Positions 33,375 to 53,212 of a stretch of 64,000 bases of DNA are shown piece by piece (the stretch's first letter is position 1; each line of letters opens with the position of its first letter). This DNA is from a virus, in the IMG/VR virus record IMGVR_UViG_3300028920_000026, positions 1 through 64,000 of that record; one strand, 5' to 3'. A program made the translations under genes and the position numbers. The notes under the pieces were generated by a model that saw nothing but the letters and a program-made list of their open reading frames with translations, was not told where the DNA came from and did no database searches.

Positions 33375-33413
33375 TAACTTGTATTGTGCTGCACGGATGG
33401 TTACATCGCAACC

Positions 33414-38110: not shown

Positions 38111-38150
38111 GCTTCTATCCTAACATACGTGTAGTCGAGATGCATGTGAT

Positions 38151-38163: not shown

Positions 38164-38165
38164 TC

Positions 38166-38954: not shown

Positions 38955-38963
38955 GGTGGAACC

Positions 38964-39965: not shown

Positions 39966-39974
39966 ACTAAGACC

Positions 39975-41614: not shown

Positions 41615-41643
41615 CACGATCCTGGAAAGAGTAAGGTACAGCT

Positions 41644-42763: not shown

Positions 42764-42894
42764 ACCCACACGAGCCCATCTCGAGGGCCCCTTGGGCTCC
42801 ATTAAGGTAATCTAAGGCCCTCGAGAAGCGCCTCGAGCCGTCAAACAGCCATCTGCACAGGTGTCAGACGGAACTCACCAAGGTATACTGCGGT

Positions 42895-43053
42895 CATGGC
42901 TGGACGGATTAAAACAATTCACCTCATCACCTACCTCCCTCTCATCGTACGAGAGTACGGGTGGGCAACCTACATCAGAGCGTGCTGGGTCTCTGCGAAA
43001 GGCGGGACCTTTCTCGAAGCGGTGCGACCCAATTTTTGGAGTGGTAAGGTCTA
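42895..43053 (+). CDS. hypothetical small protein (52 aa)
   Basis: Start chosen because 'aaGGTATACTgcggtcATGG' directly precedes it; ends 4 nt before the next motif/ATG. Confidence 0.3.
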
Positions 43054-43059
43054 ACCATG
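43046..43059 (+). promoter_or_regulatory. GGTCTAACC-ATG start motif variant
   Basis: 'aaggtctaaccATG'; the same variant occurs at 43568..43581 and 44658..44671. Confidence 0.4.
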
Positions 43060-43329
43060 GCAACAACTGATCCCAACGACTTCTACAAGCGAAAGCTGCA
43101 GCTCATTGAAGAGGCGCTCGTGCTGCTAAACAAGCTCACCACGACCATCCAGGCGCTCTCTACGTGTGAGCGTCACGATGCAGCAGTCCCGGACGACGAC
43201 CTGCTGGAATACCTCGACGAGGTTTACGGCGAAGGAGAAGACGAGACACAGCTCTTCGAGCTCTTCGATCGCCTGGCTGGCGAGCGCGGCGCGGTCAAGG
43301 CGATGGTTGATTTATCAGACGCTATTTAG
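43057..43329 (+). CDS. hypothetical small acidic protein
   Basis: 90 aa; 'taaGGTCTAACCATGGCAAC' start context. Confidence 0.45.
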   Translation: MATTDPNDFYKRKLQLIEEALVLLNKLTTTIQALSTCERHDAAVPDDDLLEYLDEVYGEGEDETQLFELFDRLAGERGAVKAMVDLSDAI

Positions 43330-43348
43330 TCCTGAAAGGAAAAGAAAA

Positions 43349-43501
43349 ATGTCAGAGAAAGAACAGCTCGTGTGGGAGTTGCAGGTACTTGTTGTCTTAG
43401 AAAAAGATAAGGCAGCAAACAGCACCAAGTACAGCGGTGTGTACAACAAACGTGCCAATGTACTTGAACAAGCACTTGAAATTGTGCAAAGGTATGCTTG
43501 A
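43349..43501 (+). CDS. hypothetical small protein (50 aa)
   Basis: 'aaaggaaaagaaaaATG' Shine-Dalgarno-type start, unlike its neighbours. Confidence 0.35.
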   Translation: MSEKEQLVWELQVLVVLEKDKAANSTKYSGVYNKRANVLEQALEIVQRYA

Positions 43502-43578
43502 AGAAGCGCTCAAAGACCCACTCCTTTGTACCCATATGACACGGTGAGGCCAACAGCCCACAGTGGTAGAGTCTAACC

Positions 43579-43728
43579 ATGGCAACGGCAATCGAAGAGC
43601 TCGCTGAGGCTGAGTTCCAGATCGTAGACATCACATTCCTCGCTCCATGCTGTGAGATCTGCGGGCAAACGCTCGACCCTGGTGTCCAGGAGTGGTGGGC
43701 CACGCTTTCATCCAGACTGCTACGATGA
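43579..43728 (+). CDS. hypothetical small CxxC protein (49 aa)
   Basis: 'gtaGAGTCTAACCATGGCAAC' context; 'CCEICGQ'. Confidence 0.4.
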   Translation: MATAIEELAEAEFQIVDITFLAPCCEICGQTLDPGVQEWWATLSSRLLR

Positions 43729-43788
43729 CGTCTTCGCAAGAACTATGCGAACCGGCGGAGAATTTCCAGACACCTTCGAGTACACCTG

Positions 43789-43962
43789 ATGTTCGCATTC
43801 CTGACATCAATCCTGATCATCGCAGCGCTGGCGTTCATAGTCGTCGCGTTGTGCAACAACACCGCCCAAGACTTCATCGTCACGTTTGTGGTGATCATTG
43901 TAGGTGGTATCATCATCGTGGGCGGTACGGTCATCACTGTAGTGTTGATTTTTGTTCTCTAA
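43789..43962 (+). CDS. small hydrophobic membrane peptide (57 aa, 2 TM)
   Basis: 'MFAFLTSILIIAALAFIVVALCNN...FVVIIVGGIIIVGGTVITVVLIFVL'; not in the supplied ORF list (<60 aa). Confidence 0.45.
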   Translation: MFAFLTSILIIAALAFIVVALCNNTAQDFIVTFVVIIVGGIIIVGGTVITVVLIFVL

Positions 43963-44012
43963 CCAATGAGATTTTGATGAAAATCACCCCTCCATGAGGT
44001 AGGGTAACAACC

Positions 44013-44282
44013 ATGAGGCAATACAACGCATCAATGGTGTCCTGGAACGGAACGAATGGCGCGGTCGACATCACTGACATCCCTGGACACGGCACCTCGC
44101 TGGCGTTCAGGCCAGGAGCAAACTTCGAACTCAGATCTTCGAAGACGGAGATGGTCGTCACGATGTACTACCAGAGGCAGCTTACGTACGACGGCGAGGT
44201 CGTCGGCTGGATCTACAACGGTGCGACGTACGATTATTACAACAAAGCAACGGACATTACCGTGATAGTCGTTAACGACTAA
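44013..44282 (+). CDS. hypothetical small protein
   Basis: 89 aa; 'GGTAGGGTAACAACCATGa' context. Confidence 0.45.
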   Translation: MRQYNASMVSWNGTNGAVDITDIPGHGTSLAFRPGANFELRSSKTEMVVTMYYQRQLTYDGEVVGWIYNGATYDYYNKATDITVIVVND

Positions 44283-44435
44283 GGTAGATTGCAGCCATGA
44301 TGGAACACCCTCACCTCAAGATCTTCAACGCGTTCCGATCGTTCGTCGCGCAGGTGCTGCAGGAAGGAGCACGCTCGCGGAGATGAACTCAACAAGATCG
44401 TCTCATACCTCAATGACTTCGACCTTGCGGACGGC

Positions 44436-44666
44436 GTGTTGGTCACGCTGTACCAACGCTACGAGTTCATCTGCTCGCTCGAACGTGAGTACGGTGAGGA
44501 CTACGAGGCGCAGGACTGGTACGATCCCATGGAGACCATGTTGATGGAATTCATGAAGGAGGCGACCAACCCGTGGAACTACGGACCAGGAGAGACATCC
44601 AAAGTAAGCGTAAATATCAGCGCCATTGCAGCGGTGTTGGCAGAACGTATAAAGGATAAAGTCTAA
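44436..44666 (+). CDS. hypothetical small acidic protein
   Basis: 76-aa ORF; the overlapping minus-strand ORF 44403..44675 was judged spurious. Confidence 0.35.
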   Translation: MLVTLYQRYEFICSLEREYGEDYEAQDWYDPMETMLMEFMKEATNPWNYGPGETSKVSVNISAIAAVLAERIKDKV

Positions 44667-44668
44667 CC

Positions 44669-44968
44669 ATGGCAAACATGCGATTCAAAAGGATTGAAGC
44701 AACGGACGTCCCCGCGAAGGTCACTGCATTGGGCTACGACTGGGAGAAGGACTACATTGTAGACGGTCCTGCAACCCACTACGGGTGTTTCGACGACCTA
44801 CATGCGCTGGTATTTCCCAGCAGTTCTTGTCCTGGAGGGTGTCTCATCCTCGCCGTGAGTGAGGATGAAATGGAGCGCCTTTCGCCGTGTGAGTACTACA
44901 TTGAGTCGGAAATGACGATCGAAAGGCTGGAGAAAGAGGGGCTCCCGACTCGACGAACGCTGCTTTAA
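44669..44968 (+). CDS. hypothetical small protein
   Basis: 99 aa; 'aaaGTCTAACCATGGCAAAC' context. Confidence 0.45.
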   Translation: MANMRFKRIEATDVPAKVTALGYDWEKDYIVDGPATHYGCFDDLHALVFPSSSCPGGCLILAVSEDEMERLSPCEYYIESEMTIERLEKEGLPTRRTLL

Positions 44969-45032
44969 GGTCGTCGACTACGTAAGCGGCGTAGCATCGC
45001 TGGCCAGTGCGGACGGAGACGCAGACGAGGCG

Positions 45033-45242
45033 ATGCCTGGACGTGGTACCTCTGATTGGGTCGGAGACGAGGGAAACTACACTCACAAGGAGTACAGCGA
45101 CATCGAGCTCGAAACGATCCCACCTCAGCCTCGCACGGGCGCGATCCCAGACGAGGCGAAATGGCACTTCGGTGCTGTTACTCAGAACGTTGATCCGAAG
45201 AACATCGCGGTCCCGCCACCCCGCCGCAACCGTGCAGCGTAA
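45033..45242 (+). CDS. hypothetical small protein
   Basis: 69-aa ORF. Confidence 0.3.
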   Translation: MPGRGTSDWVGDEGNYTHKEYSDIELETIPPQPRTGAIPDEAKWHFGAVTQNVDPKNIAVPPPRRNRAA

Positions 45243-45266
45243 TCGTCTGGGTGGTATTGTACCACC

Positions 45267-45773
45267 ATGGCAGCCAACAAAGTTCCCCCGCAGCAGCTAA
45301 CGACCGAAGACGACCTCACGCTCCTCATGACAGTCACGGAGCCTGACGAGGCGGCCTACGAAGACTGGGTCGATGAAGAGACAGGCGAGGTCCTCTGGTG
45401 TGCCAACGAGCGCGCCGATGAGTGTCGCCTGCACCCTGTTTTCGTCGCCCGTCAAGCGGACGAGCTGCGTGCACGCAGCGAATGGACGACGAAGCTCTTG
45501 GATGATCCGCTGGGTCTCCTTAACGAGCTCATTGATGCATACGTCAAGGAACACGCGGACGCAGACGCATGTCGTGACCTCGGCATAGGTCCAAATGATG
45601 TAGAGATGTTCTATGATCTTGCTGAGTCGTTCTTCTTTAGTGAGACCCGTTGGCGCGAGGTGCTCGACTACGTAGATGATGAATTCTACGACGAGCCTCT
45701 CAACAAGGCGTTCGTCCAACGAATGGTCGCTGAGCAGCTGCACAGTGCCTTGGCGGATCAGTTGAGATACTGA
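45267..45773 (+). CDS. hypothetical acidic protein
   Basis: 168 aa, highly acidic; 'tGGTATTGTACCACCATGG' context. Confidence 0.45.
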   Translation: MAANKVPPQQLTTEDDLTLLMTVTEPDEAAYEDWVDEETGEVLWCANERADECRLHPVFVARQADELRARSEWTTKLLDDPLGLLNELIDAYVKEHADADACRDLGIGPNDVEMFYDLAESFFFSETRWREVLDYVDDEFYDEPLNKAFVQRMVAEQLHSALADQLRY

Positions 45774-45915
45774 AGGATGAAGAAACCCAGCGCGAGTTGT
45801 GGCTGATGGTGTTCACGGTGGCGATGCAAAGCCTGCGTCAATCCCAAATTCCTGCTAGTACGAAGTACTCCGACCCTCGACATAAATCGTCACCATGACG
45901 CCAACGATCACAAGA

Positions 45916-45932
45916 GGTATACTGAGACCATG
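45916..45932 (+). promoter_or_regulatory. GGTATACT-N6-ATG start motif (leaderless-type promoter/initiation element)
   Basis: 'ggtatactgagaccATG'; -10-like TATACT exactly 6 nt before the start codon. Confidence 0.5.
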
Positions 45933-46220
45933 GACAGCAAGGAACTCATCGAACTCATCAAGGCTGCGGAATGTAAACCCTACGCGTACAGCGGGAGAGG
46001 GATGTTCGGAAGGCAGTGTATTGCATTCAATACAGACATGTCGTCGATCGTCGCGCTCGCCACGATCGTACAGGTAGCATGCGACGTCTATGATGATGTT
46101 GGCGACATTCGAGAAGCCGCAGAGGCGATTGAGAACGCGCAATCTGACGGTATGGGTATGAACAGTGTGATCTACTTTCCGGCGTATGAGTGGATCGAAG
46201 ACCACGAGGAAGAGGGCTAA
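45930..46220 (+). CDS. hypothetical small protein
   Basis: 96 aa; canonical 'gaGGTATACTGAGACCATGG'. Confidence 0.5.
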   Translation: MDSKELIELIKAAECKPYAYSGRGMFGRQCIAFNTDMSSIVALATIVQVACDVYDDVGDIREAAEAIENAQSDGMGMNSVIYFPAYEWIEDHEEEG

Positions 46221-46242
46221 GGGCTGGGGCATAGTGCTGACC

Positions 46243-46563
46243 ATGGAAATGATCGAGCTGCTGCAGAGGTTGAAGACGTACGCTGAAGTCTACGGGCTCG
46301 TCTACCGCGACAGCACCAGGTTCAAGGAGATCTGGAGCGACATCGACGCGGAGGATTGGATCGAGTGTGGCATCATCGGCGTAGCATTCTATGAACTGGA
46401 CGGGCTGTCTCCCCAGGGTGTCGTCTTCGTCAAGGCGAACGGCACTGTGGAGGCGCTTACCAAGTGGAGCATTGACATGATGGAGGATCGCATCGAAGAC
46501 GTCACTTTTTGCTTCCTACACTGGGAGGCTATGTTTCGACCGCGCCTCCATGCAGAGAATTGA
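46243..46563 (+). CDS. hypothetical protein
   Basis: Start taken at 'MEMIELLQRL', preceded by 'GCATAGTGCTGACCATGG' (motif variant). Confidence 0.4.
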   Translation: MEMIELLQRLKTYAEVYGLVYRDSTRFKEIWSDIDAEDWIECGIIGVAFYELDGLSPQGVVFVKANGTVEALTKWSIDMMEDRIEDVTFCFLHWEAMFRPRLHAEN

Positions 46564-46583
46564 GAAATGAGGTAGGATCTACC

Positions 46584-46748
46584 ATGCTCGACAAAGACGA
46601 TACGTTTGACCCATTCAAGTGGTTCTTCGGGATGTTCGCATCTTTCGGGTGCGGATTTGTGGTCGTGTGGGTGGTCTCGGCATTGGCTTCATTGGCTCTC
46701 ATCGCCGCCCTCATTTACCTGATTGTCAAGTTTGCCGGAACCCTGTGA
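46584..46748 (+). CDS. small membrane peptide (54 aa)
   Basis: 'MLDKDDTFDPFKWFFGMFASFGCGFVVVWVVSALASLALIAALIYLIVKF'; 'GGTAGGATCTACCATG' context. Confidence 0.45.
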   Translation: MLDKDDTFDPFKWFFGMFASFGCGFVVVWVVSALASLALIAALIYLIVKFAGTL

Positions 46749-46782
46749 GTGCCCTAGCCTTCGGGTTGAGGTATACTGACTC

Positions 46783-46989
46783 ATGATCCGTGACACCCAG
46801 ATCAGACGCGCAGCGGACGAGCTCTTCTACAAGGGCAGGTACGTGGGAAACTCGCTCCTCGCAGCGGCGGGAGAGATCCTGCTCAAGGAGTATAATATCG
46901 CTCAGCATCCAACGTGTAGCAACAGTGCAGCGTCGGCTGCCGTCTACATGCCGCCTCACACTCCAGGTGTCCCTGCTTTGAAGCGGTGA
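46783..46989 (+). CDS. hypothetical small protein
   Basis: 68 aa; 'gaGGTATACTgactcATG'. Confidence 0.45.
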   Translation: MIRDTQIRRAADELFYKGRYVGNSLLAAAGEILLKEYNIAQHPTCSNSAASAAVYMPPHTPGVPALKR

Positions 46990-47006
46990 CGAATCGACCT
47001 CGAAAG

Positions 47007-47023
47007 AGTATACTAAGATCATG
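47007..47023 (+). promoter_or_regulatory. GGTATACT-N6-ATG start motif
   Basis: 'gagtatactaagatcATG'. Confidence 0.5.
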
Positions 47024-47224
47024 GAGAAAACAGTCACTGTCGACCTCGTAACACCAACACTTCACCAGCGCGTCGTTCTTCGTGCGCTTAGCACCGTCTG
47101 CCTGCGCGATCCGGTCGCCGCAGCGTACGACCGACACGCTGCCTTCGTCTACCACGGAGCACCGTTCAGCGAATCCGCCTGGGATTGCGTCCGCTTGCAC
47201 GCTGAGAAGATCGGCGTAGCTTAA
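47021..47224 (+). CDS. hypothetical small protein
   Basis: 67 aa; 'gaGTATACTAAGATCATGG'. Confidence 0.45.
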   Translation: MEKTVTVDLVTPTLHQRVVLRALSTVCLRDPVAAAYDRHAAFVYHGAPFSESAWDCVRLHAEKIGVA

Positions 47225-47291
47225 CAACGATCGTTTAAAAGTTCATAGCAACACTGTGACGCCGTTGGCGTCCAGTGGTTAAGGTAGAACC

Positions 47292-47519
47292 ATGGGTAGG
47301 GAAGAAAAGATCAAGGCGCTGAAGGACATTCTCATGTCCTGCGGAGACACCCAGGACTTTCTCGAGCTCGTTGCTGACATGTACGACGAGTTCAACACTG
47401 AGAACCTTGACCCGAAGTGGGATGACTACGAGCCTCAGAAGCTCGACGCAGACGCTGCGTCGAAGCTCATCAGAGAGTGTGCCGCGGGGGTTGGCGTGTT
47501 GGAACAGACGTGGTTGTGA
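47292..47519 (+). CDS. hypothetical small acidic protein
   Basis: 75 aa; 'ttaaGGTAGAACCATGG'. Confidence 0.45.
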   Translation: MGREEKIKALKDILMSCGDTQDFLELVADMYDEFNTENLDPKWDDYEPQKLDADAASKLIRECAAGVGVLEQTWL

Positions 47520-47530
47520 GACAACAGGAG

Positions 47531-47595
47531 AGGCCCTCTCGGGTCTCTCTCGAGACCTTTCTTGGGTCCTAGGTAGGATTCCATACGTACGCCTC
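47531..47595 (+). repeat. ~65-nt intergenic repeat containing TAGGTAGGATTCCATACGTACG (copy 1)
   Basis: Shares 'ccctctcggg' and an exact 22-mer with 51281..51345. Confidence 0.45.
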
Positions 47596-47645
47596 AGGCC
47601 CTCACGAGGGCAGCCTCGAGGCATGTGCCGCGGACCCCCATAGGG

Positions 47646-47662
47646 GATATACTAAGATCATG
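47646..47662 (+). promoter_or_regulatory. GGTATACT-N6-ATG start motif
   Basis: 'ggatatactaagatcATG'. Confidence 0.5.
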
Positions 47663-47848
47663 GCAACCAACGTACAGAAGGCGCAGAAGCTCAGTGAGCT
47701 CGCAGAGGTCATCGCAAAGAATCGTCCATCCGAAAAACAGATTCGAGAGGCGTGCAGAAGCATCGCTCGCCAGTTTGGCGTTAGGGTGAAGGACGTCCGC
47801 GGGTTGGTGGACGCAGCGGTTGCGCTGTACAACGGAAGGATCCAATGA
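47660..47848 (+). CDS. small protein, founder of a 3-member paralog set (ACR..A..G..V.DV.GLVD motif)
   Basis: 62 aa; '...EKQIREACRSIARQFGVRVKDVRGLVDAAVALY'; canonical 'GGATATACTAAGATCATGGCAAC'. Confidence 0.5.
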   Translation: MATNVQKAQKLSELAEVIAKNRPSEKQIREACRSIARQFGVRVKDVRGLVDAAVALYNGRIQ

Positions 47849-48123: not shown

Positions 48124-48179
48124 TCGATCGTCGCACGTCGACACACGACGGCACGCAAGGGTTGGTGTGTTTCCGGTTC

Positions 48180-48204
48180 AATCATGGTAGACTAAAACCA
48201 TCAA
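48180..48204 (+). repeat. conserved 25-mer AATCATGGTAGAYTARAACCATCAA (copy 1 of 2)
   Basis: Identical except for 2 nt to 49029..49053; each lies ~40-60 nt upstream of a gene start in the cassette array. Confidence 0.45.
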
Positions 48205-48231
48205 CTGGGTGTGACGGACACATCCCTTGAG

Positions 48232-48248
48232 AGTATACTGAGACCATG
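48232..48248 (+). promoter_or_regulatory. GGTATACT-N6-ATG start motif
   Basis: 'gagtatactgagaccATG'. Confidence 0.5.
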
Positions 48249-48527
48249 ATGGACAGGAAACTCGCGGAACGACTTCTCACGATCCTGGACGAGTTTGCAA
48301 GCAAGCATGATCTCGTCTACGATCCCGATGAGTTCGATGCAGAAAGTCTCATAGGGGCATTCAACGCTGGTGAGGAACTTCCATGCGTCAACAGCATGCC
48401 GTTCGAAGGTTATGAGGTCCTCTGGATCAATTATGACGGAAAGTTAGAATACTTTTCGGGTCCTTCGCTCCGGCATAAAATAGCAGACGTCGAAAGCTTC
48501 GATCCGAACAAAGTAATAATCCCGTAA
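48246..48527 (+). CDS. hypothetical small protein
   Basis: 93 aa; 'gaGAGTATACTGAGACCATGa'. Confidence 0.45.
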   Translation: MMDRKLAERLLTILDEFASKHDLVYDPDEFDAESLIGAFNAGEELPCVNSMPFEGYEVLWINYDGKLEYFSGPSLRHKIADVESFDPNKVIIP

Positions 48528-48757
48528 GGACTCGATGGACAAGACATTCGCGCTCGTCGAGCTATACGACGTACACACGTGGTAATGCGTGGTTGCCAAG
48601 CCAGAGGAGGATCCGGGAGTGGGGTCCCCTGCCTCACTAAGGTGTGATGGTAGAAACCCGACTAAACCAACCAGATGATACCATCGGGATCCTAGGACAA
48701 CCCTCAGGGGGGTCGGACATCCTGTGCTGCCGAAACGGGTGTGGTACGGTACGACCA

Positions 48758-48948
48758 ATGGAAAAAACAATCACGATCGAACTAATCAAAAGTTTCTGCA
48801 AGACTACGGTGACCTCGCTGAGTTCATTACAAAGCATCTGAGCAACAGGTGCAGGAAGCGTGTAGAGACATTGCCAAGCAGTTCAACGTCAGTGTAAAGG
48901 ATGTTCGTGGGGTGGTGGACACTGCGATTACACTCTATGAGAAGTAAC
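48758..48948 (+). pseudogene. decayed paralog of gene 47660..47848 (two frameshifts)
   Basis: Three successive frames read 'MEKTITIELIKSFC' / 'KDYGDLAEFITKHLS' / 'EQQVQEACRDIAKQFNVSVKDVRGVVDTAITLYEK*'. This is colinear with 'MATNVQKAQKLSELAEVIAKNRPSEKQIREACRSIARQFGVRVKDVRGLVDAAVALYNGRIQ'. Its upstream motif is also degenerate ('GGTACGGTACGACCAATGG'). Confidence 0.45.
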
Positions 48949-49028
48949 GGTCCCTACCGAGATTCATTCAGTCGAACTCAGGATTTGATCGATCAACGAC
49001 ACACTACAGGCCAGTGCCGCGGCAGCCT

Positions 49029-49053
49029 AATCATGGTAGATTAGAACCATCAA
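49029..49053 (+). repeat. conserved 25-mer AATCATGGTAGAYTARAACCATCAA (copy 2 of 2)
   Basis: See 48180..48204. Confidence 0.45.
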
Positions 49054-49055
49054 AG

Positions 49056-49074
49056 GGGAGCGGCGGACGCTCCC
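49056..49074 (+). terminator. hairpin gggagcg-gcgga-cgctccc
   Basis: Precedes the ATG of 49091. Confidence 0.35.
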
Positions 49075-49090
49075 TTGGAAGGCAACCACG

Positions 49091-49354
49091 ATGGATCAAG
49101 ATGTACGAAAGAGACTTCACGAGATTTACCGTAACCTCGACGAGCTCCTCACCGAGCTCAAAGACACCATGCGGTCGGAGCCCGACCTTCAACCCTACTA
49201 CGAACCTGCCAGGGCGTACTGGCTGGCATCGTTGGATGTCGGTCTGAATGCAGCCGAGTATGTCACCTTCAACCCGACTTTCTCCGGTATGCTCGAGGAC
49301 CTCGGCATCATGGACTACGACGGTGAGTTCATCGAGTGCGAAGAGGAATGCTGA
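49091..49354 (+). CDS. hypothetical small acidic protein
   Basis: 87 aa; preceded by the hairpin 49056..49074. Confidence 0.45.
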   Translation: MDQDVRKRLHEIYRNLDELLTELKDTMRSEPDLQPYYEPARAYWLASLDVGLNAAEYVTFNPTFSGMLEDLGIMDYDGEFIECEEEC

Positions 49355-49382
49355 AGCATCAGCTCGGAATCTAGCACGGGTG

Positions 49383-49402
49383 CCCCTGGCTTCGGCCAGG
49401 GG
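49383..49402 (+). terminator. UUCG-tetraloop hairpin (terminator/insulator-like) preceding a start motif
   Basis: 'cccctggc-ttcg-gccagggg'. Confidence 0.45.
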
Positions 49403-49417
49403 TATACTCTAACCATG
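49401..49417 (+). promoter_or_regulatory. GGTATACT-N6-ATG start motif
   Basis: 'ggtatactctaaccATG' immediately 3' of hairpin 49383..49402. Confidence 0.5.
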
Positions 49418-49603
49418 GCATTCAGGAACAACAACGGCGACGTGATTCGCATCAACCTCGTGTCCAACGCGTTCTGCGTCAACAACGGGCCCTACGTCCA
49501 GTGGGAGCGCGCGACGATTGAAGGCCTCTGCAGCCAGCTTACGAGCAGCACTGATTGGGTACGCATCCCGTCTGGAACAGGCATCTTCACTCCCGCTTGG
49601 TGA
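49415..49603 (+). CDS. hypothetical small protein
   Basis: 62 aa; hairpin + 'GGTATACTctaaccATGG'. Confidence 0.45.
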   Translation: MAFRNNNGDVIRINLVSNAFCVNNGPYVQWERATIEGLCSQLTSSTDWVRIPSGTGIFTPAW

Positions 49604-49628
49604 GGATGAACGGTCGTCGATCGATGTC

Positions 49629-49648
49629 TGACACGGGAAACCCCGTGT
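49629..49648 (+). terminator. hairpin preceding a start motif
   Basis: 'gacacggg-aaac-cccgtgtc'. Confidence 0.45.
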
Positions 49649-49665
49649 CGGTCCCCACCTTCGAA

Positions 49666-49682
49666 GGTATACTGAGACCATG
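49666..49682 (+). promoter_or_regulatory. GGTATACT-N6-ATG start motif
   Basis: 'ggtatactgagaccATG'. Confidence 0.5.
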
Positions 49683-49994
49683 GAAAAACGCAAGCCAAGC
49701 GAGTTCGCGCTAGGAGACATCGTCAAGATGACGTCTTACGATGGCAAGGGTTTCTGCGGACGGGATCCTCACCCGAAACCCTACGATGTTGGCAAGGAGT
49801 ATCTAATCCTCAAGGTGAAGTACAACGATGGAAGCGACTTCGTGCCCATGGAAGGCGAAACGCAGGAAGACCTCGCCTTCACAGTCATGGACTGCCAGTG
49901 CCTCGATGGTACAGAGCGCAAGGTACAGCTCGTTGATCACGAGGTGGAGCTGGTCTCAGATCTACTCAGGGGCTTCTTCTTTGAGTGTGAGTGA
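49680..49994 (+). CDS. hypothetical small protein
   Basis: 104 aa; hairpin + 'aaGGTATACTGAGACCATGG'. Confidence 0.5.
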   Translation: MEKRKPSEFALGDIVKMTSYDGKGFCGRDPHPKPYDVGKEYLILKVKYNDGSDFVPMEGETQEDLAFTVMDCQCLDGTERKVQLVDHEVELVSDLLRGFFFECE

Positions 49995-50049
49995 GTCCTG
50001 AAAAAAGCTTCGACCGCGCAGTAGCGTGGTCGTGTGGTTGCCAATGCCT

Positions 50050-50095
50050 GAGAAGGTGGGGGCTTGGGCACTTCGGTTCGGGTCCCCACCTTCTC
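50050..50095 (+). terminator. long hairpin (12-bp stem) with internal cUUCGg
   Basis: 'gagaaggtgggg...cttcgg...ccccaccttctc' after the stop of 49680..49994. Confidence 0.45.
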
Positions 50096-50153
50096 ATTCC
50101 TTCACCGTTTCCCCGAGGGCTGTAGCCGTCTCGTGTTGTATACGGCCTGCGAG

Positions 50154-50170
50154 GGTATACTAAGACCATC
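50154..50170 (+). promoter_or_regulatory. GGTATACT-N6 motif with start codon mutated to ATC, followed by a ~65-nt leader
   Basis: 'gggtatactaagaccATC'; the real ATG is 67 nt downstream, after a second 'ggtataaagaatcATGG'. Confidence 0.45.
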
Positions 50171-50234
50171 GGACAGGAACGGCGCGGGAAGCGTCGGCGG
50201 ATGAAACTCAACCCACACGAAGGTATAAAGAATC
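50171..50234 (+). repeat. duplicated 5' leader (copy 1) between the ATC-mutated motif and the real ATG
   Basis: 'ggacaggaacggcgcgg.aag...ggcg..ATGaa.c.caacccacacgaaggtataaagaa.c' is ~90% identical to 52593..52658. Confidence 0.45.
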
Positions 50235-50567
50235 ATGGCAAACGGCACACACAAGGCAATGTTCCTCTCACTCGCCAGCCTCCTCACCGGCAGCATCTTG
50301 ATGTTCTGCGCGGTCTATTCTGGAACGCATCACTCTCCCGTATCGGTCCCGACGTACGAGGACACGGTCACCCAACCTGTTCCAGTCGAGGTCACCCCCG
50401 ACGTCACCGAGGTCGAGACGGTCACCATCTCGGTTAAGGCACCTCCAAAGCGTGGCAGTGTCATGAAGCTCGGCGAGAGCCGCAAGGTCACGGGTCGGTG
50501 CTGGAAACAGGCCCTCGAGCAAGGCGGCAGTCCAGACGCCCCGAACGTCATCGTCTGCGACCTCTGA
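50235..50567 (+). CDS. secreted/membrane-anchored small protein (paralog of 52659..52985)
   Basis: 110 aa; N-terminal hydrophobic 'AMFLSLASLLTGSILMFCAVYSG'; C-terminus '...GRCWKQALEQGGSPDAPNVIVCDL' parallels the paralog '...KRCFEHVMAQQGRPRARSVIVCE'. Confidence 0.55.
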   Translation: MANGTHKAMFLSLASLLTGSILMFCAVYSGTHHSPVSVPTYEDTVTQPVPVEVTPDVTEVETVTISVKAPPKRGSVMKLGESRKVTGRCWKQALEQGGSPDAPNVIVCDL

Positions 50568-50579
50568 ACACAACCACAC

Positions 50580-50601
50580 GGGACCGGCACGTGCCGGTCC
50601 C
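50580..50601 (+). terminator. perfect 22-nt palindromic hairpin GGGACCGGCACGTGCCGGTCCC
   Basis: Directly after the stop of 50235..50567 and 10 nt before the TATACT motif. Near-identical copies occur at 52030..52057 and 52334..52355. Confidence 0.5.
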
Positions 50602-50611
50602 TCTCCCTCGG

Positions 50612-50628
50612 GATATACTGAGACCATG
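50612..50628 (+). promoter_or_regulatory. GGTATACT-N6-ATG start motif
   Basis: 'ggatatactgagaccATG'. Confidence 0.5.
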
Positions 50629-51183
50629 GAAACGGCAACCATGATGACCCCACAGCCTACCCTTGAGGCCGTCCTTGCGGCTCTCAACACGCAGCGTGGC
50701 CTGGAACGTGGCATCACCCTGATCGCCAAGCGACAGACGCCCGATGAACGGATCGAGTTCACCACGAAGTACGACAACGATCGGGGCTTCGAGGCATGGG
50801 CGGCACGCAAGGGGACCCGCATCGCAAACGCCGTCCTTGATGATGGCGCCCGCCTGACTCCTGGGTCATCATGGTGGGCCTTCGCACAGAAGGTGCTCCG
50901 TCGCAACAAATACCAGCTTCTGGAAGAGGCATGGAAGAAGTGGTGGCAAAAGAACTCTGCGCTCGTCACCCCCGGCACGGGCATCGAGCTGGCACACGGG
51001 TTCACCCTATCGGACGGGTCAAAGGTGCGGCACAACCACATGCTCCTCTTCATGGCCTTCGAGCCCGATCCTGAGGGTCACCACGAGGGACACATCGTCT
51101 TCCTCAACAAGGACGGCGTGCCCAAACGGGAGCATCCCAGCTACCTCTTCCGGCGCGTCAAACAGATCCTGATACCTGCATAG
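50626..51183 (+). CDS. hypothetical protein
   Basis: 185 aa; begins 'METATMM' from the same 'ATGGAAACGGCAACC' start as 51681; palindromic hairpin + 'GGATATACTGAGACCATGG'. Confidence 0.5.
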   Translation: METATMMTPQPTLEAVLAALNTQRGLERGITLIAKRQTPDERIEFTTKYDNDRGFEAWAARKGTRIANAVLDDGARLTPGSSWWAFAQKVLRRNKYQLLEEAWKKWWQKNSALVTPGTGIELAHGFTLSDGSKVRHNHMLLFMAFEPDPEGHHEGHIVFLNKDGVPKREHPSYLFRRVKQILIPA

Positions 51184-51280
51184 GGCTGGCTGGTAACGAT
51201 CGTCGATCGCCCGCTCGTCACGCGAGCAAAATGAAAAAGCTGGTACACGGTGGCTGCCGTTAAAATTTGACCATTCACGA

Positions 51281-51345
51281 GCCCTCTCGGGACCCTCTCA
51301 AGGGCCTTGGAAGGGCTTAGGTAGGATTCCATACGTACGTCAAAG
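51281..51345 (+). repeat. ~65-nt intergenic repeat containing TAGGTAGGATTCCATACGTACG (copy 2)
   Basis: See 47531..47595. Confidence 0.45.
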
Positions 51346-51362
51346 GACCCTTGCGGGGGTCC
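51345..51362 (+). terminator. hairpin ggaccc-ttgcg-ggggtcc
   Basis: Precedes the RBS and ATG of 51374. Confidence 0.35.
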
Positions 51363-51373
51363 GGGGGAGAAAG

Positions 51374-51607
51374 ATGAAAGACAGCGAACGACGGCTATTG
51401 AACGTGATCAACGTCCACGGGCACTCACCTAGGCGCGTGCGCAAGGCGTGTCGAAATGTAGCCCGCCGCCTCGGGATCGACAAGCAGTACGTCCAAGACG
51501 TTGTCGCGAGGGTCTTTGTAGCGTACTCACTCGACGGCACCGTGCTGCACCTCACGTACTGTGGTGCGGTACAAGGAATGCCGAGTTGTTTTTGGAGATC
51601 GTCCTGA
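51374..51607 (+). CDS. small protein, paralog of 47660..47848
   Basis: 77 aa; 'VRKACRNVARRLGIDKQYVQDVVARVF'; uses an SD-type start 'ggagaaagATG' after the hairpin 51345..51362. Confidence 0.45.
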   Translation: MKDSERRLLNVINVHGHSPRRVRKACRNVARRLGIDKQYVQDVVARVFVAYSLDGTVLHLTYCGAVQGMPSCFWRSS

Positions 51608-51666
51608 TGACCCCTTCGCACCAAGTTAAGGAAGCGAACAGCGTGGTGCGCTAACCACCACGAAGG

Positions 51667-51683
51667 GGTATACTAAGACCATG
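51667..51683 (+). promoter_or_regulatory. GGTATACT-N6-ATG start motif
   Basis: 'gggtatactaagaccATG'. Confidence 0.5.
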
Positions 51684-51965
51684 GAAACGGCAACCACCAA
51701 GTCAACCAAGCTCCGGAAAATCTACCTGCGCGGTCCCAAGGGCGACACCAAGAAGGTGCTCGTGCTCCTGGCCGGTGTCCTCTACGAGGCCGAATACACG
51801 GTGTCCTGCTACGAAGACCTCGGTGGTGACAAGTGTGAGGTCCTTGATGTCACTGATACCTACATCCACGTACGCCTTGGCACCGGCGTGGAAAACATCT
51901 TCACCCGGCAAGCGCTGGCCGCCGCACCCGCCCAGCTCGAGCTACCCTTCGCGGTCGCGGCCTAA
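51681..51965 (+). CDS. hypothetical small protein
   Basis: 94 aa; 'GGGGTATACTAAGACCATGGAAACGGCAACC'. Confidence 0.5.
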   Translation: METATTKSTKLRKIYLRGPKGDTKKVLVLLAGVLYEAEYTVSCYEDLGGDKCEVLDVTDTYIHVRLGTGVENIFTRQALAAAPAQLELPFAVAA

Positions 51966-52029
51966 CAACACCCGCAACAGTGTGCCCCGACTGAAGTCGG
52001 GGCACACTACTGGGACCATGGACCTCTGA

Positions 52030-52057
52030 GAATGGACCGGCACGTGCCGGTCCATTC
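52030..52057 (+). terminator. palindromic hairpin gaatGGACCGGCACGTGCCGGTCCattc
   Basis: Copy of the 50580 palindrome with an extended stem; precedes the TATACT motif of 52079. Confidence 0.5.
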
Positions 52058-52064
52058 CCTCAAG

Positions 52065-52081
52065 GGTATACTAAGACCATG
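52065..52081 (+). promoter_or_regulatory. GGTATACT-N6-ATG start motif
   Basis: 'gggtatactaagaccATG'. Confidence 0.5.
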
Positions 52082-52318
52082 GAAGCAACCAAACAAGCGG
52101 TAAAAGGAATCACTCGAGCAATCAAGTCACAGGTCGAAAGAATGGATGATTTCTTTAGAGATTGTTTGGACCTGTATGACGTTGATGATGCCAGCGTTCT
52201 GGAAATCAATCCGGAAGAGTTCTCCAAGATGGTCATTGATGCTGTCACCGAGGAACTCAACGGAGATCTGAGTGAGGTCTTCAAGGATTGGATGGAGCGC
52301 TATCAGGAAGATATCTAA
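52079..52318 (+). CDS. hypothetical small acidic protein
   Basis: 79 aa; palindromic hairpin + 'aGGGTATACTAAGACCATGG'. Confidence 0.5.
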   Translation: MEATKQAVKGITRAIKSQVERMDDFFRDCLDLYDVDDASVLEINPEEFSKMVIDAVTEELNGDLSEVFKDWMERYQEDI

Positions 52319-52333
52319 ACCAGAGGACCACAC

Positions 52334-52355
52334 GGGACCGGCATGTGCCGGTCCC
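52334..52355 (+). terminator. palindromic hairpin GGGACCGGCATGTGCCGGTCCC
   Basis: Third copy (one central substitution), directly after the stop of 52079..52318. Confidence 0.5.
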
Positions 52356-52575
52356 TCTCCTGGCTTTGAGAGAGTGAAAGGAAGAAGGACAGTTCGGGTT
52401 TTTCTTCAACACCAACGGAAACTGTGACGTGATCACTCTTTCAGACCATTGATGACGTTGACGAACTGGAGTCTGTGGGTACACCACTAATATTCCTCCC
52501 TCATTTTCACTCCTCTAATCCTAGTTGGTGGGGGAGAAATCCCCCACCTTCACCGTGTCCCCTACTTTTCAAGGG

Positions 52576-52592
52576 GATATACTAAGACCATC
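52576..52592 (+). promoter_or_regulatory. GGTATACT-N6 motif with ATC, followed by the duplicated leader
   Basis: 'ggatatactaagaccATC'; second copy of the 50154 arrangement. Confidence 0.45.
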
Positions 52593-52658
52593 GGACAGGA
52601 ACGGCGCGGAAGGCTCCGGCGCTGATGAAGACCAACCCACACGAAGGTATAAAGAACC
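52593..52658 (+). repeat. duplicated 5' leader (copy 2)
   Basis: See 50171..50234. Confidence 0.45.
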
Positions 52659-52985
52659 ATGGCAACCAACGGAATCAACAAGGTCCTTTCAATCGTAGTC
52701 CTCTTCGCCGGCGCAGCAGCCCTGGCACTCTCACTCGGGTTCATCAACAACAGCAACGCTCAAGAAGTCGACACAGACGCGCTGTATCCGACACGGGATG
52801 AGGTCACACGCCCTGTCCCCAAGGGTGAGGTCACCATCACATCCATCACTGTCACTGAGCACCCCAAAAAGGTGCCTGCCACACGGAAGGCGTCCTACAC
52901 GAAACCGGTCCAAAAGCGCTGCTTCGAGCACGTCATGGCCCAGCAGGGTCGTCCCAGAGCTCGCAGCGTCATCGTCTGTGAGTGA
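52659..52985 (+). CDS. secreted small protein (paralog of 50235..50567)
   Basis: 108 aa; signal-like 'VLSIVVLFAGAAALALSLGFINNSNAQE'; shares the duplicated ~70-nt leader with its paralog. Confidence 0.55.
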   Translation: MATNGINKVLSIVVLFAGAAALALSLGFINNSNAQEVDTDALYPTRDEVTRPVPKGEVTITSITVTEHPKKVPATRKASYTKPVQKRCFEHVMAQQGRPRARSVIVCE

Positions 52986-52998
52986 TCACCTTCATCCG

Positions 52999-53022
52999 GT
53001 GTCCTCCCCTTCGGGGGAGGAC
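52999..53022 (+). terminator. UUCG-tetraloop hairpin
   Basis: 'gtcctcccc-ttcg-ggggaggac'; after the stop of 52659..52985, overlapping the next CATACT box. Confidence 0.45.
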
Positions 53023-53035
53023 ATACTAAGACCAT
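53019..53035 (+). promoter_or_regulatory. CATACT-N6-ATG start motif overlapping a hairpin stem
   Basis: 'gacatactaagaccATG'. Confidence 0.45.
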
Positions 53036-53212
53036 GGAAACAATCACAGCAAGATCTACACGGTCTTCTGATGCCGAAAGGATCGGCGCACGCTGTATAC
53101 GGCACGCCCAAAGGGGGCCCCACTACTCGTCGAGAGGATCCTCGATGCATGATGGGGCCCCCTTTTTACGTCGAGGAGAGCACACAGAGGGCCCCCTTGA
53201 GAGCCCCCTATG
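53033..53212 (+). CDS. hypothetical small basic protein (59 aa)
   Basis: hairpin + 'CATACTAAGACCATGG'; its 3' end runs into the CCCCCTTGAGAG repeats. Confidence 0.35.

What the first reader, a model, noticed from the sequence alone, without database searches (positions are those of the whole stretch)
42880..53040. Conserved GGTATACT-N6-ATGG element at ~25 gene starts: candidate leaderless promoter with built-in start codon
Across the plus-strand small-gene array the start codon is embedded in a near-invariant 18-mer, GG-TATACT-(A/G)AGACC-ATG-G, with variants GGTCTAACCATGG, GGTAGAACCATGG, GGTAGGATCTACCATG and GGATACACACCATG. The -10-like TATACT box ends exactly 6 nt before the A of the ATG, which is the geometry of leaderless mRNAs (TSS = A of ATG). 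There is no Shine-Dalgarno except at a few genes (43349, 51374). Most starts read ATGGCAAC or ATGGAAAC, so the motif extends into the first codons and always creates the palindrome CCATGG. The divergent gene at 38166 shows the same 6-nt spacing with a TGaTATGAT extended -10. One motif therefore appears to programme both transcription and translation of the whole early-gene repertoire.
Basis: partly seen in the sequence, partly recalled or inferred. Interest (0 to 1): 0.8.

Follow-up and report, generated by a model that had tools for sequence, protein, structure and literature searches.

The report
Leaderless promoter cassettes, jumbo phage
A 331-kb uncultured phage puts the same ~37-bp bacterial-type promoter directly against the ATG of about twenty consecutive small genes, so the mRNAs should begin at their start codon with no ribosome-binding site; this mode of expression is already known, and what is new is how stereotyped and clade-wide its use is here.

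Summary
TANNNT-N6-ATG is strongly over-represented, and a PWM trained only on distant relatives gives 28 hits in the window against 0.1 in shuffles, 26 of them on the + strand.

That completes a σ70-type promoter whose predicted +1 is the A of the ATG.

Five orthologs at 51–59% identity keep only -35 GTG, -10 TATNYT, CC at -2/-1 and ATGG; the spacers are unrelated. Four copies read ATC instead of ATG and are followed by leaders with a Shine-Dalgarno sequence, so the element is a promoter and not a translation signal. Downstream genes within units use Shine-Dalgarno sequences.

The leaderless-promoter reading is therefore supported in silico. No TSS data exist, and "early" timing, the host and the RNA polymerase are inferred.

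TANNNT 6–7 nt before ORFs is established in Deinococcus-Thermus and Actinobacteria, and phage φYS40 makes leaderless mRNAs. New here are the stereotyped cassette, its one-per-ORFan use, and its presence in a jumbo-phage clade, unlike φKZ and AR9. Interest is moderate.

The parts
1891..1929 (+). Leaderless-type promoter at the GroEL gene start: TTGACC-17-TAAGAT-CCTTCC-ATG, with a canonical -35
   Evidence: PWM hit of 15.6 bits; regex hit; GroEL identity
34373..34412 (+). Cassette variant with a 7-nt discriminator: GGATATACT-TGAGACC-ATG
35247..35285 (+). Tight cassette GTGTGC-17-TATACT-AAGACC-ATGG. Its ATG opens only a 12-aa ORF, and a 56-aa ORF starts at 35298 in another frame
38929..38967 (+). 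Cassette GTGACA-17-TAGGGT-GGAACC-ATG
39940..39978 (+). Cassette with the long upstream block seen in relatives: GGTGCAAAGTT…TAAACT-AAGACC-ATGG
41609..41647 (+). Cassette ATGTAG-17-TAAGGT-ACAGCT-ATG
42861..42899 (+). Cassette GTGTCA-17-TATACT-GCGGTC-ATGG
43022..43060 (+). Subfamily II cassette GTGCGA-17-TAAGGT-CTAACC-ATGGCAAC
   Evidence: (family D4)
43544..43582 (+). Subfamily II cassette GTGAGG-17-TAGAGT-CTAACC-ATGGCAAC
43977..44016 (+). Variant with a 7-nt discriminator: TAGGGT-AACAACC-ATG
44262..44300 (+). Cassette GTGATA-17-TAGATT-GCAGCC-ATG. The ORF is only 29 aa and may be frameshifted
44634..44672 (+). Subfamily II cassette GTGTTG-17-TAAAGT-CTAACC-ATGGCAAA
45232..45270 (+). Cassette GTGCAG-17-TATTGT-ACCACC-ATGG
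45895..45933 (+). Tight cassette ATGACG-17-TATACT-GAGACC-ATGG
46550..46587 (+). Variant with a 5-nt discriminator: TAGGAT-CTACC-ATG
46749..46786 (+). Variant with a 5-nt discriminator: TATACT-GACTC-ATG
46986..47024 (+). Tight cassette GTGACG-17-TATACT-AAGATC-ATGG
47256..47295 (+). Cassette with an 18-nt spacer: GTGACG-18-TAAGGT-AGAACC-ATGG. A hairpin overlaps the spacer
47625..47663 (+). Tight cassette GTGCCG-17-TATACT-AAGATC-ATGG
48165..48203 (+). Promoter copy without a start codon: GTGTGT-17-TAGACT-AAAACC-ATC. It sits in tandem upstream of the 48246 cassette
   Evidence: (family D6)
48211..48249 (+). Tight cassette GTGACG-17-TATACT-GAGACC-ATG
49014..49052 (+). Promoter copy without a start codon: GTGCCG-17-TAGATT-AGAACC-ATC. 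A 42-nt leader with a hairpin and a GGAAGG Shine-Dalgarno sequence precedes the ATG at 49091
   Evidence: (family D6)
49380..49418 (+). Tight cassette GTGCCC-17-TATACT-CTAACC-ATGG. A -21.5 kcal/mol hairpin fills the spacer
49645..49683 (+). Tight cassette GTGTCG-17-TATACT-GAGACC-ATGG
50133..50171 (+). Perfect promoter with ATC at +1..+3. A 65-nt leader precedes gene 50235
   Evidence: (families D7/D8)
50591..50629 (+). Tight cassette GTGCCG-17-TATACT-GAGACC-ATGG at the 185-aa gene used for footprinting
51646..51684 (+). Tight cassette GTGCGC-17-TATACT-AAGACC-ATGG
52044..52082 (+). Tight cassette GTGCCG-17-TATACT-AAGACC-ATGG
52555..52593 (+). Perfect promoter with ATC at +1..+3. A 65-nt leader precedes gene 52659, which is a paralog of 50235
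52999..53037 (+). Cassette GTGTCC-17-CATACT-AAGACC-ATGG. A -21.6 kcal/mol hairpin fills the spacer
38107..38145 (-). Minus-strand leaderless-type promoter ATGCAT-17-TAGGAT-AGAAGC-ATG (179-aa gene), divergent from 38166
38131..38169 (+). Divergent partner TGA-TATGAT-ATCATC-ATG (107-aa gene)
33356..33394 (-). Minus-strand cassette GTGCAG-17-TATTGT-CATATT-ATGG
50580..50601 (+). Perfect hairpin GGGACCGGCACGTGCCGGTCCC (-19.5 kcal/mol). It is a likely terminator of the upstream gene, and its loop supplies the -35 GTG of the 50626 promoter. Further copies lie at about 52031–52056 and 52335–52354
   Evidence: (family D2)

Best explanation
Each element is a compact σ70-family promoter of about 37 bp. 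It has a -35-like (G/T)TGnnn, a 17-nt non-conserved spacer, GG at -14/-13, a -10 box TANNNT (best form TATACT), and a 6-nt purine-rich discriminator ending in ACC. The A of the gene's ATG then sits at the predicted +1.

A σ70-type RNA polymerase holoenzyme, most simply the host's housekeeping one, would start transcription at that A. That would give an mRNA with no 5' UTR and no Shine-Dalgarno sequence, translated through the leaderless pathway, in which ribosomes bind a 5'-terminal AUG. The fixed 6-nt discriminator and the C(-2)C(-1)/A(+1) context would pin the start site to the A, which leaderless translation needs.

Nearly every small ORFan in the + strand block (about 34.4–53.2 kb) has its own cassette. 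Second genes within a unit use ordinary Shine-Dalgarno sequences. About a third of the cassettes are preceded or overlapped by a strong GC hairpin that probably terminates the upstream unit.

Shown by sequence analysis: the geometry, the statistics, the conservation across genomes, and the promoter-only (ATC) copies.

Inferred: the actual TSS, which polymerase and sigma factor are used, early timing, and a host from a leaderless-rich lineage such as Deinococcus-Thermus or Actinobacteria.
For: 1. The spacing peak is at exactly 6 nt on both strands.
2. GTG at -35..-33 was not selected for, yet it is present in 27, 31 and 30 of 40 sites at the three positions. TG at -34/-33 accompanies 61% of k=6 sites against 12% of all TANNNT.
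3. A generic σ70 scan calls four sites as GTGACG/GTGTCA/ATGACG-17-TATACT. The GroEL gene has TTGACC-17-TAAGAT-6-ATG.
4. A PWM trained only on 98 sites from relatives gives 28 window hits of at least 10 bits, against 0.1 in shuffles.
5. Five orthologs at 51–59% amino-acid identity keep only GTG(-35), TATNYT(-10), CC(-2/-1) and ATGG. Independent gene callers chose the same ATG in three of them.
6. In relatives with GC from 0.435 to 0.60, 50 of 85 independently called starts have TANNNT at 5–7 nt, and nearly all of those have (G/A)TG at -35.
7. Four copies carry ATC instead of ATG and are followed by leaders, with a clear Shine-Dalgarno sequence at 49091.
8. Motif starts are 33/36 ATG against 74/108 elsewhere (p=0.007), and their upstream gaps are longer, with a median of 54 nt against 16–17 nt.
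9. The first 40 nt of the predicted mRNAs fold at -4.3 kcal/mol, against -8.6 for internal windows (p=2e-6), and are 36% A.
10. The array proteins are mostly not paralogs. Similarity between copies is limited to a 37-nt block running from GTG to CCAT.
11. Published experiments show that TANNNT 6–7 bp before ORFs is a σA -10 region that gives leaderless mRNA in Deinococcus (PMC12340547, PMC4007540). The same signal marks leaderless genes across bacteria (PMC3160421).
Against: No transcript 5' ends were measured. The phage is uncultured and its host is unknown.

Conservation from -14 to +4, the G rather than T at -35, and the 10-mer GGTGCAAAGT in one relative all exceed what σ70 recognition alone needs. 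A phage-encoded sigma factor, activator or repressor could therefore be involved.

Only about 84 kb of the 331 kb was inspected for polymerase or sigma genes.

At two tight cassettes (35282, 44297) the ATG opens only a 12- or 29-aa ORF.

Enrichment of hairpins is modest: 30% against 10% for strong hairpins, and mean energies are similar.
Confidence: 0.8

Rival explanations
1. The cassettes are read by a phage-specific transcription component rather than the unmodified host holoenzyme. Candidates are a phage-encoded sigma factor, a sigma appropriator or activator that binds the upstream block (as the T4 MotA box does at -30), or a phage RNA polymerase. The mRNAs would still be leaderless.
For: Conservation runs from -14 to +4 and is stronger than in host-type leaderless promoters; D. 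deserti shows no conserved -35. The -35 position has G where the consensus has T. One relative has a 10-mer, GGTGCAAAGT, centred near -32, and one window copy (39975) shares it. Jumbo phages often carry their own polymerases (PMC5312081, PMC8244752).
Against: The layout is the canonical bipartite σ70 one with 17–18-nt spacing and a TANNNT -10 box. The GroEL gene uses TTGACC with the same -10/+1 geometry. No sigma, RNAP or MotA-like domain was found in 140 window proteins or in the 10-kb flanks. Known phage RNAP promoters (T7-type, φKZ, AR9) are not bipartite -35/-10 elements; this last point is from general knowledge and was not tested here.
Confidence: 0.15
2. The extra sequence conservation is maintained because the cassettes also act as recombination modules, like the T4-type PeSL promoter/stem-loop cassettes, or as operators for a phage repressor that shuts the whole class off. 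This role would be in addition to promoter function, not instead of it.
For: The arrays follow a pattern of one cassette per unrelated ORFan. Cassette subfamilies look homogenised within a genome: window families D1 and D4, and the repeated TGATAGGATTGGACC and GGTGCAAAGT blocks in L004. Strong stem-loops adjoin 30% of cassettes. PeSL cassettes are a published precedent (PMC4122927).
Against: No pair of close genomes was available to show indels bounded by cassettes. No DNA-binding regulator was identified. Orthologous cassettes drift in sequence between genomes, as expected under simple promoter constraint.
Confidence: 0.3
3. The motif is a non-Shine-Dalgarno translation initiation signal on long polycistronic transcripts, similar to the start-associated sequences of Cluster K mycobacteriophages. 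On this view it is not a promoter.
For: It sits where a ribosome-binding site would sit, immediately upstream of start codons, and in one orientation only. Start-associated sequences show that conserved start-adjacent motifs exist in phages (PMC3203893).
Against: A translation signal does not explain a conserved GTG exactly 17 nt upstream of the TANNNT box. It also does not explain perfect copies that carry ATC instead of ATG. The motif has no complementarity-type GGAG core, whereas internal genes use ordinary Shine-Dalgarno sequences. In Deinococcus the equivalent motif could not be replaced by a ribosome-binding site and binds RpoD (PMC12340547).
Confidence: 0.03
4. The repeats are a local duplication artefact: remnants of tandem gene duplication with no regulatory meaning.
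For: A few paralog pairs were duplicated together with their upstream regions: 50235/52659 and 47660/51374.
Against: Most array proteins are unrelated to each other. Similarity between copies is confined to the 37-nt promoter block. The same architecture occurs in at least six other genomes and at orthologous positions.
Confidence: 0.01

Closest known systems
Leaderless ("TA-led") genes of Deinococcus-Thermus and Actinobacteria: a σA -10 box TANNNT 6–7 bp upstream of the ORF (PMC3160421, PMC4007540, PMC12340547)
   Same: The geometry is identical: TANNNT, then about 6 nt, then the start codon. There is no Shine-Dalgarno sequence and the start is ATG. The favoured hexamers are similar, TACACT in D. 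radiodurans and TATACT here. Leaderless genes coexist with Shine-Dalgarno-led genes.
   Different: The element here is in a phage and is much more stereotyped. GG at -14/-13, the RAGACC discriminator and G at +4 are all conserved. There is also a conserved -35-like GTG, whereas no conserved -35 was found in D. deserti. It is used at nearly every gene of an array rather than at about a third of the genes.
Thermus phage φYS40 middle and late leaderless transcripts (described in PMC3594737; the primary paper was not available to me)
   Same: It is a large phage in which most transcripts of a temporal class lack a leader and depend on leaderless translation.
   Different: φYS40 is about 152 kb and AT-rich (from memory). 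Its leaderless class is middle/late, not a putative early ORFan array. No sequence relationship was found. Changes in IF2 and IF3 are reported for φYS40, and nothing comparable could be tested here.
PeSL (promoter-early stem-loop) cassettes of T4-like phages (PMC4122927, PMC2839356)
   Same: Short conserved composite terminator/promoter units lie between small, unrelated ORFan genes in plastic regions of large phage genomes.
   Different: PeSL promoters give leadered mRNAs with ribosome-binding sites. Here the start codon is part of the cassette. Strong stem-loops accompany only about 30% of the copies. Recombination at the cassettes was not tested.
Start-associated sequences (SAS, GGGATAGGAGCCC) of Cluster K mycobacteriophages (PMC3203893)
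   Same: It is an asymmetric conserved motif found in one orientation immediately upstream of many unrelated phage gene starts, and it is conserved across subclusters.
   Different: SAS contains a GGAG-like core and has no TANNNT or -35 partner, and its function is unresolved. The present element has promoter geometry and no Shine-Dalgarno sequence.
Jumbo-phage promoters of φKZ and AR9 (PMC8244752, PMC5312081)
   Same: They are stereotyped promoter motifs repeated before many genes of a jumbo phage.
   Different: Those promoters are read by phage multisubunit RNA polymerases, are not -35/-10 bipartite, and give 5' UTRs of 26–491 nt. No leaderless transcript was detected in φKZ.

Membership tests
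σ70-family (housekeeping-type) bacterial promoter | A -10 hexamer with T(-12), A(-11) and T(-7) | tested here: met
   TANNNT is present at all sites by definition of the search, and TATACT is the commonest form. The spacing peak at 6 nt shows the sites are not random hexamers.
σ70-family (housekeeping-type) bacterial promoter | A -35 element 16–18 nt upstream of the -10 hexamer | tested here: met
   An unselected (G/T)TG lies at -35..-33 with a 17-nt spacer in 61% of k=6 sites, against a 12% background. Examples are GTGACG, GTGTCA and TTGACC. One relative uses an 18-nt spacer. The signal is not explained by upstream stop codons.
σ70-family (housekeeping-type) bacterial promoter | Transcription by a σ70-type holoenzyme, starting about 7 nt after the -10 box at a purine | not testable with these tools
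   The sequence context fits, with C at -1 in 29 of 40 sites and A at +1. There are no transcript or biochemical data.
Leaderless (TA-led) genes | TANNNT about 12 bp upstream of the translation start, with no Shine-Dalgarno sequence | tested here: met
   Shown, and by independent gene calls in relatives.
Leaderless (TA-led) genes | A start codon at the mRNA 5' end, with AUG strongly preferred | tested here: inconclusive
   ATG is enriched, 33/36 against 74/108, p=0.007, and the predicted 5' ends are unstructured. The mRNA 5' end itself was not observed.
PeSL cassettes (T4-like phages) | A composite of a terminator stem-loop and an early promoter between ORFans | tested here: inconclusive
   Strong hairpins (≤ -16 kcal/mol) precede 30% of cassettes against 10% of controls, p=0.005, but mean energies are similar.
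PeSL cassettes (T4-like phages) | Indels and gene swaps bounded by the cassettes in closely related genomes | not tested
   No closely related genome pair was available. The nearest relatives are only 68–72% identical at the nucleotide level, in patches.
T4 MotA-type middle promoters | A MotA/AsiA-like activator and appropriator encoded by the phage | tested here: not met
   No such domain was found among 140 window proteins or in the 10-kb flanks. Only about a quarter of the genome was seen.
Cluster K start-associated sequences | A 13-mer GGGATAGGAGCCC-like motif with a GGAG core 3–8 bp before starts | tested here: not met
   The motif sequence is unrelated. It has no GGAG core and has TANNNT plus -35 geometry instead.

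The most novel reading that the evidence does not exclude
The 37-bp cassette could be a clade-specific expression module rather than just a strong host-type promoter. Its extra conserved positions (-14 to +4, and the GTG or GGTGCAAAGT block) would be read by a phage-encoded factor such as a sigma factor, an appropriator or a class-wide shut-off repressor. The phage would then couple this to a shift of the host ribosome pool towards leaderless initiation, as reported for φYS40. That would give a jumbo phage a private transcription-translation channel for dozens of monocistronic takeover genes.
Probability: 0.15. Interest if true: 0.7.

Novelty: new member of a known kind. Interest (0 to 1): 0.42.

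Why it matters
The result gives a rule for annotating this uncultured jumbo-phage clade: true starts are the ATGs 6 nt after TANNNT. Automatic gene callers missed at least one of these starts, at 50626, where they chose a downstream ATG.

The signal also points to a host lineage that handles leaderless mRNAs well.

It shows that a jumbo phage can run a large ORFan array as monocistronic leaderless units, unlike φKZ and AR9.

The cassette is a minimal element of about 37 bp that combines a promoter and a start codon. It could be tested as an expression part that needs no ribosome-binding site in Deinococcus-Thermus or Actinobacteria.

Its stereotypy also makes it a convenient handle for finding related phages in metagenomes.

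Tried and rejected
1. **Archaeal virus.** The Cpn60/TCP-1, MVP, KaiC-like and UvdE hits and the acidic proteins suggested this. I rejected it because the chaperonin is GroEL-type at about 44% identity to bacterial GroL, internal genes use Shine-Dalgarno sequences, and the promoter geometry is bacterial.

2. **Host identification.** None of these routes gave a host:
   - megablast and tblastn against isolate phages;
   - UvdE homologs, cluster look-up and a GTDB genome scan, where the nearest cellular hits are 30–43% identical and spread over many phyla;
   - sample accessions in the literature, which showed only that one relative comes from a rice-root plaque metagenome.

3. **Phage sigma or RNAP.** None was found in the window or in the 10-kb flanks.

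4. **GTG as a stop-codon artefact.** Rejected. The upstream stop sits at -34..-32 in only 7 of 28 L012 sites and 2 of 19 window sites.

5. **Duplication artefact.** Rejected.

6. **A universal stem-loop partner.** Not supported by mean hairpin energies; only the strong tail is enriched.

7. **Sharing with the 462–735-kb huge phages.** These carry the MVP-like and GroEL genes but show no 6-nt peak and no -35 GTG.

8. **The primary φYS40 paper.** It could not be read.

9. **Rfam.** Only tRNAs were found.

Full report
**What the window is.** The window is part of a 331,213-bp metagenomic contig (ENA ERZ27252253, also assembled from SRR8554435). It has about 54% GC, two or three tRNAs and about 140 mostly ORFan genes.

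Recognisable genes include a GroEL-type chaperonin, UvdE, a pyrimidine-dimer glycosylase, an MVP-shoulder protein, ATPases and a glycosyltransferase. There is no close relative among 50,697 isolate phage records.

The MVP-like protein matches only the 462–735-kb uncultured huge phages LR756500/1/3. This is an uncultured jumbo phage with an unknown host. An early suspicion of an archaeal virus was dropped, because the chaperonin is about 44% identical to bacterial GroL and internal genes use AGGAGG-type Shine-Dalgarno sequences.

**The observation.** The motif is real. GGTATACTN6ATG with up to 2 mismatches gives 32 hits against 7.3 expected. The core TATACT-N4-YC-AT[G/C] occurs 13 times, all on the + strand and all intergenic.

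The general pattern TANNNT-Nk-ATG peaks sharply at k=6 on both strands. On + there are 27 sites, 22 of them opening ORFs of at least 45 aa. On - there are 17 sites, 12 with ORFs. At the other spacings there are about 5–16 sites per strand.

One of them, at 40293, is instead Shine-Dalgarno-led. Only five copies match the full 18-mer exactly. In 42880–53040 about 20 of about 30 gene starts carry the element at 5–7 nt, and four further copies read ATC instead of ATG.

I aligned all 40 TANNNT-N6-AT[G/C] sites on the A of the ATG. This exposes a GTG at -35..-33 that was not part of the search, present in 27, 31 and 30 of 40 sites at the three positions. It also shows G at -14/-13, A(-3) C(-2) C(-1), and G at +4.

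A hexamer at -35..-30 is exactly 17 nt from the -10 box at -12..-7. A generic σ70 scan independently calls four sites as GTGACG/GTGTCA/ATGACG-17-TATACT. The GroEL gene start has a canonical TTGACC-17-TAAGAT-6-ATG.

The TG at -34/-33 accompanies 61% of k=6 sites, 39% of k=7 sites and 12% of all TANNNT hexamers. The three parts, -35, -10 and ATG, are therefore coupled. The signal is not a by-product of upstream stop codons.

**Evidence from other genomes.** The exact 18-mer occurs in a few IMG/VR contigs of 278 and 324 kb and in some shorter ones. These share only patches of 68–72% nucleotide identity with the window. They carry the same element at one small-gene start after another, with a conserved upstream block.

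Using independent gene calls from three further metagenomic contigs, 50 of 85 starts have TANNNT at 5–7 nt, and nearly all of those have (G/A)TG at -35. The GC content of these contigs ranges from 0.435 to 0.60. Per-genome consensus sequences all read (G)GTG … GG-TAtacT-purines-ACC-ATGG.

A PWM trained only on 98 sites from relatives gives 28 window hits of at least 10 bits, against 0.1 in shuffles.

For the 185-aa gene at 50626, five orthologs at 51–59% protein identity keep GTG(-35), TATNYT(-10), CC(-2/-1) and ATGG. The 17-nt spacers and everything upstream are unrelated.

The 462–735-kb huge phages, which share two genes with the window, show no 6-nt peak and no -35 GTG. They serve as a negative control.

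**Promoter, not a translation signal or a duplication relic.** Four perfect or near-perfect copies have ATC at +1..+3 (positions 48200, 49049, 50168 and 52590; two independent duplicated pairs). Each is followed by a 40–65-nt leader. At 49091 that leader contains a hairpin and a GGAAGG Shine-Dalgarno sequence.

Array proteins are mostly unrelated to one another. The only paralog groups are 47660/48759/51374 and 50235/52659. The repeat finder's main family is a 37-nt unit that runs exactly from the -35 GTG to …CCAT.

Motif starts are 33/36 ATG against 74/108 for other starts (p=0.007). They follow longer gaps, with a median of 54 nt against 16–17 nt. The first 40 nt of the predicted mRNAs fold weakly, at -4.3 kcal/mol against -8.6 for internal windows (p=2e-6), and are A-rich.

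Strong GC hairpins precede or overlap 30% of cassettes against 10% of control windows (p=0.005). Mean energies barely differ, so a stem-loop is a frequent partner but not an obligatory one. In two copies the loop of the hairpin GGGACCGGCACGTGCCGGTCCC supplies the -35 GTG. In relative L012 the upstream stop codon is often embedded in the promoter, with gaps of exactly 31, 21 or 14 nt.

**Mechanism.** The best-supported reading is a σ70-family promoter whose +1 is the A of the ATG. This would give mRNAs without a 5' UTR that are translated by the leaderless route.

The fixed 6-nt discriminator and the CC/A context would restrict initiation to that A. Position 7 after the -10 box with pyrimidine at -1 and purine at +1 is the preferred start in well-studied systems; that point is established knowledge and was not tested here.

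Which holoenzyme acts is inferred. The host housekeeping enzyme is the simplest candidate, because the geometry is canonical and no sigma or RNAP gene was seen in about 84 kb. However, conservation runs from -14 to +4, and one relative has the 10-mer GGTGCAAAGT. That leaves room for a phage-specific factor, or for an extra role as a recombination module or operator. "Early" timing is an analogy with other large phages, not a result.

**Comparison with what is known.** TANNNT about 12 bp before the start codon is the recognised signature of leaderless genes. It is most frequent in Deinococcus-Thermus (about 39% of genes) and Actinobacteria (about 19%) (PMC3160421).

In D. deserti 47% of TSSs lie on the first base of the start codon, and no conserved -35 was found (PMC4007540). 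In D. radiodurans the box, most often TACACT, lies 6–7 bp before about a third of ORFs. It binds RpoD and cannot be replaced by a ribosome-binding site (PMC12340547).

Thermus phage φYS40 makes most of its middle and late mRNAs without leaders (PMC3594737). In contrast, φKZ showed no leaderless transcripts and AR9 has 5' UTRs of 26–491 nt (PMC8244752, PMC5312081).

The array layout recalls the PeSL promoter/stem-loop cassettes of T4-like phages (PMC4122927). The Cluster K start-associated sequences are a looser parallel (PMC3203893).

**Verdict.** The mechanism is a known one.

The new elements are the stereotyped 37-bp cassette with its -35 GTG, its one-per-ORFan deployment, its conservation across a clade of uncultured jumbo phages, and its compact punctuation (stop codon inside the promoter, start codon at +1). 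I rate it a new member of a known kind, of moderate interest.

Noticed in passing
window 50580-50601, 52031-52056, 52335-52354: There are three copies of the perfect hairpin GGGACCGGCA(C/T)GTGCCGGTCCC. In two of them the loop supplies the -35 GTG of the next promoter. The third (52335) is not followed by a cassette, and it lies before a roughly 200-nt stretch (52355-52560) with no called gene.
   Followed up: partly
window 48180-48230 and 49029-49079: This is a duplicated unit. It has a promoter with ATC at +1..+3, followed by a leader hairpin whose stem sequence differs between the copies but stays paired (GGGTGTG…CACATCCC versus GGGAGCG…CGCTCCC). It may be a structured 5' leader or an attenuator.
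   Followed up: no
window 50153-50241 and 52575-52665: This is a duplicated unit of 89% identity. It has a perfect promoter with ATC, a 65-nt GC-rich leader, and then a 17-mer, GGTATAAAGAAYCATGG, one base shorter than the cassette, at the start of paralogous small genes (50235, 52659). These genes also have overlapping alternative ORFs starting at 50201 and 52625.
   Followed up: no
window 47533-47601 and 51281-51349: A 69-nt repeat (77% identity) contains TAGGTAGGATTCCATACGTACG, a TAGGAT promoter without an adjacent ATG. It lies upstream of paralogous genes 47660 and 51374. A third paralog near 48759-48947 appears frameshifted.
   Followed up: partly
window 35268-35320 and 44283-44670: At two good cassettes the ATG opens only a short ORF: 12 aa at 35282 and 29 aa at 44297. 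Longer ORFs follow in other frames. These could be micro-ORFs, pseudogenes or assembly frameshifts.
   Followed up: no
window 17518-20127 (-): An 869-aa protein has major-vault-protein shoulder and repeat domains. Its only phage homologs (39–41% identity over nearly full length) are in the 462-kb and 735-kb uncultured huge phages LR756500/1/3, which do not share the promoter cassette.
   Followed up: partly
window 411-1370 (+), plus another gene in the window: The window carries two UV-damage repair genes: UvdE and a Pyr_excise (T4 endonuclease V-like) domain protein. UvdE homologs are present on other jumbo contigs of 298–324 kb.
   Followed up: partly
L094 10488-18776 (just beyond the window's 3' end): This flank holds a sugar-nucleotide modification cluster: nucleoside 2-deoxyribosyltransferase, sulfotransferase, UDP-glucose dehydrogenase, DegT aminotransferase, GFO/IDH/MocA oxidoreductase and formyltransferase. 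It could serve DNA hypermodification or remodelling of surface glycans.
   Followed up: no
window 21172-21272 (-): There is a weak third tRNA-like match (Rfam 30.5 bits, 101 nt) that ARAGORN did not call.
   Followed up: no
L012 (JGI 3300071648 contig), whole locus: This 20-kb array has about 55 small + strand genes and about 37 cassettes. Upstream stop codons are embedded in the promoter at fixed offsets: intergenic gaps of exactly 31 nt in seven cases (TGA at -34..-32), 14 nt in four and 21 nt in three.
   Followed up: yes
window versus ENA contig coordinates (L008, L095): The contig coordinates imply that the window runs past the end of the 331,213-bp contig. That is consistent with a circular or terminally redundant, complete genome.
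   Followed up: no
window 53191-53238: A tandem 24-nt repeat, GCCCCCTTGAGAGCCCCCT…, lies at the junction where the + strand array meets the convergent minus-strand block.
   Followed up: no
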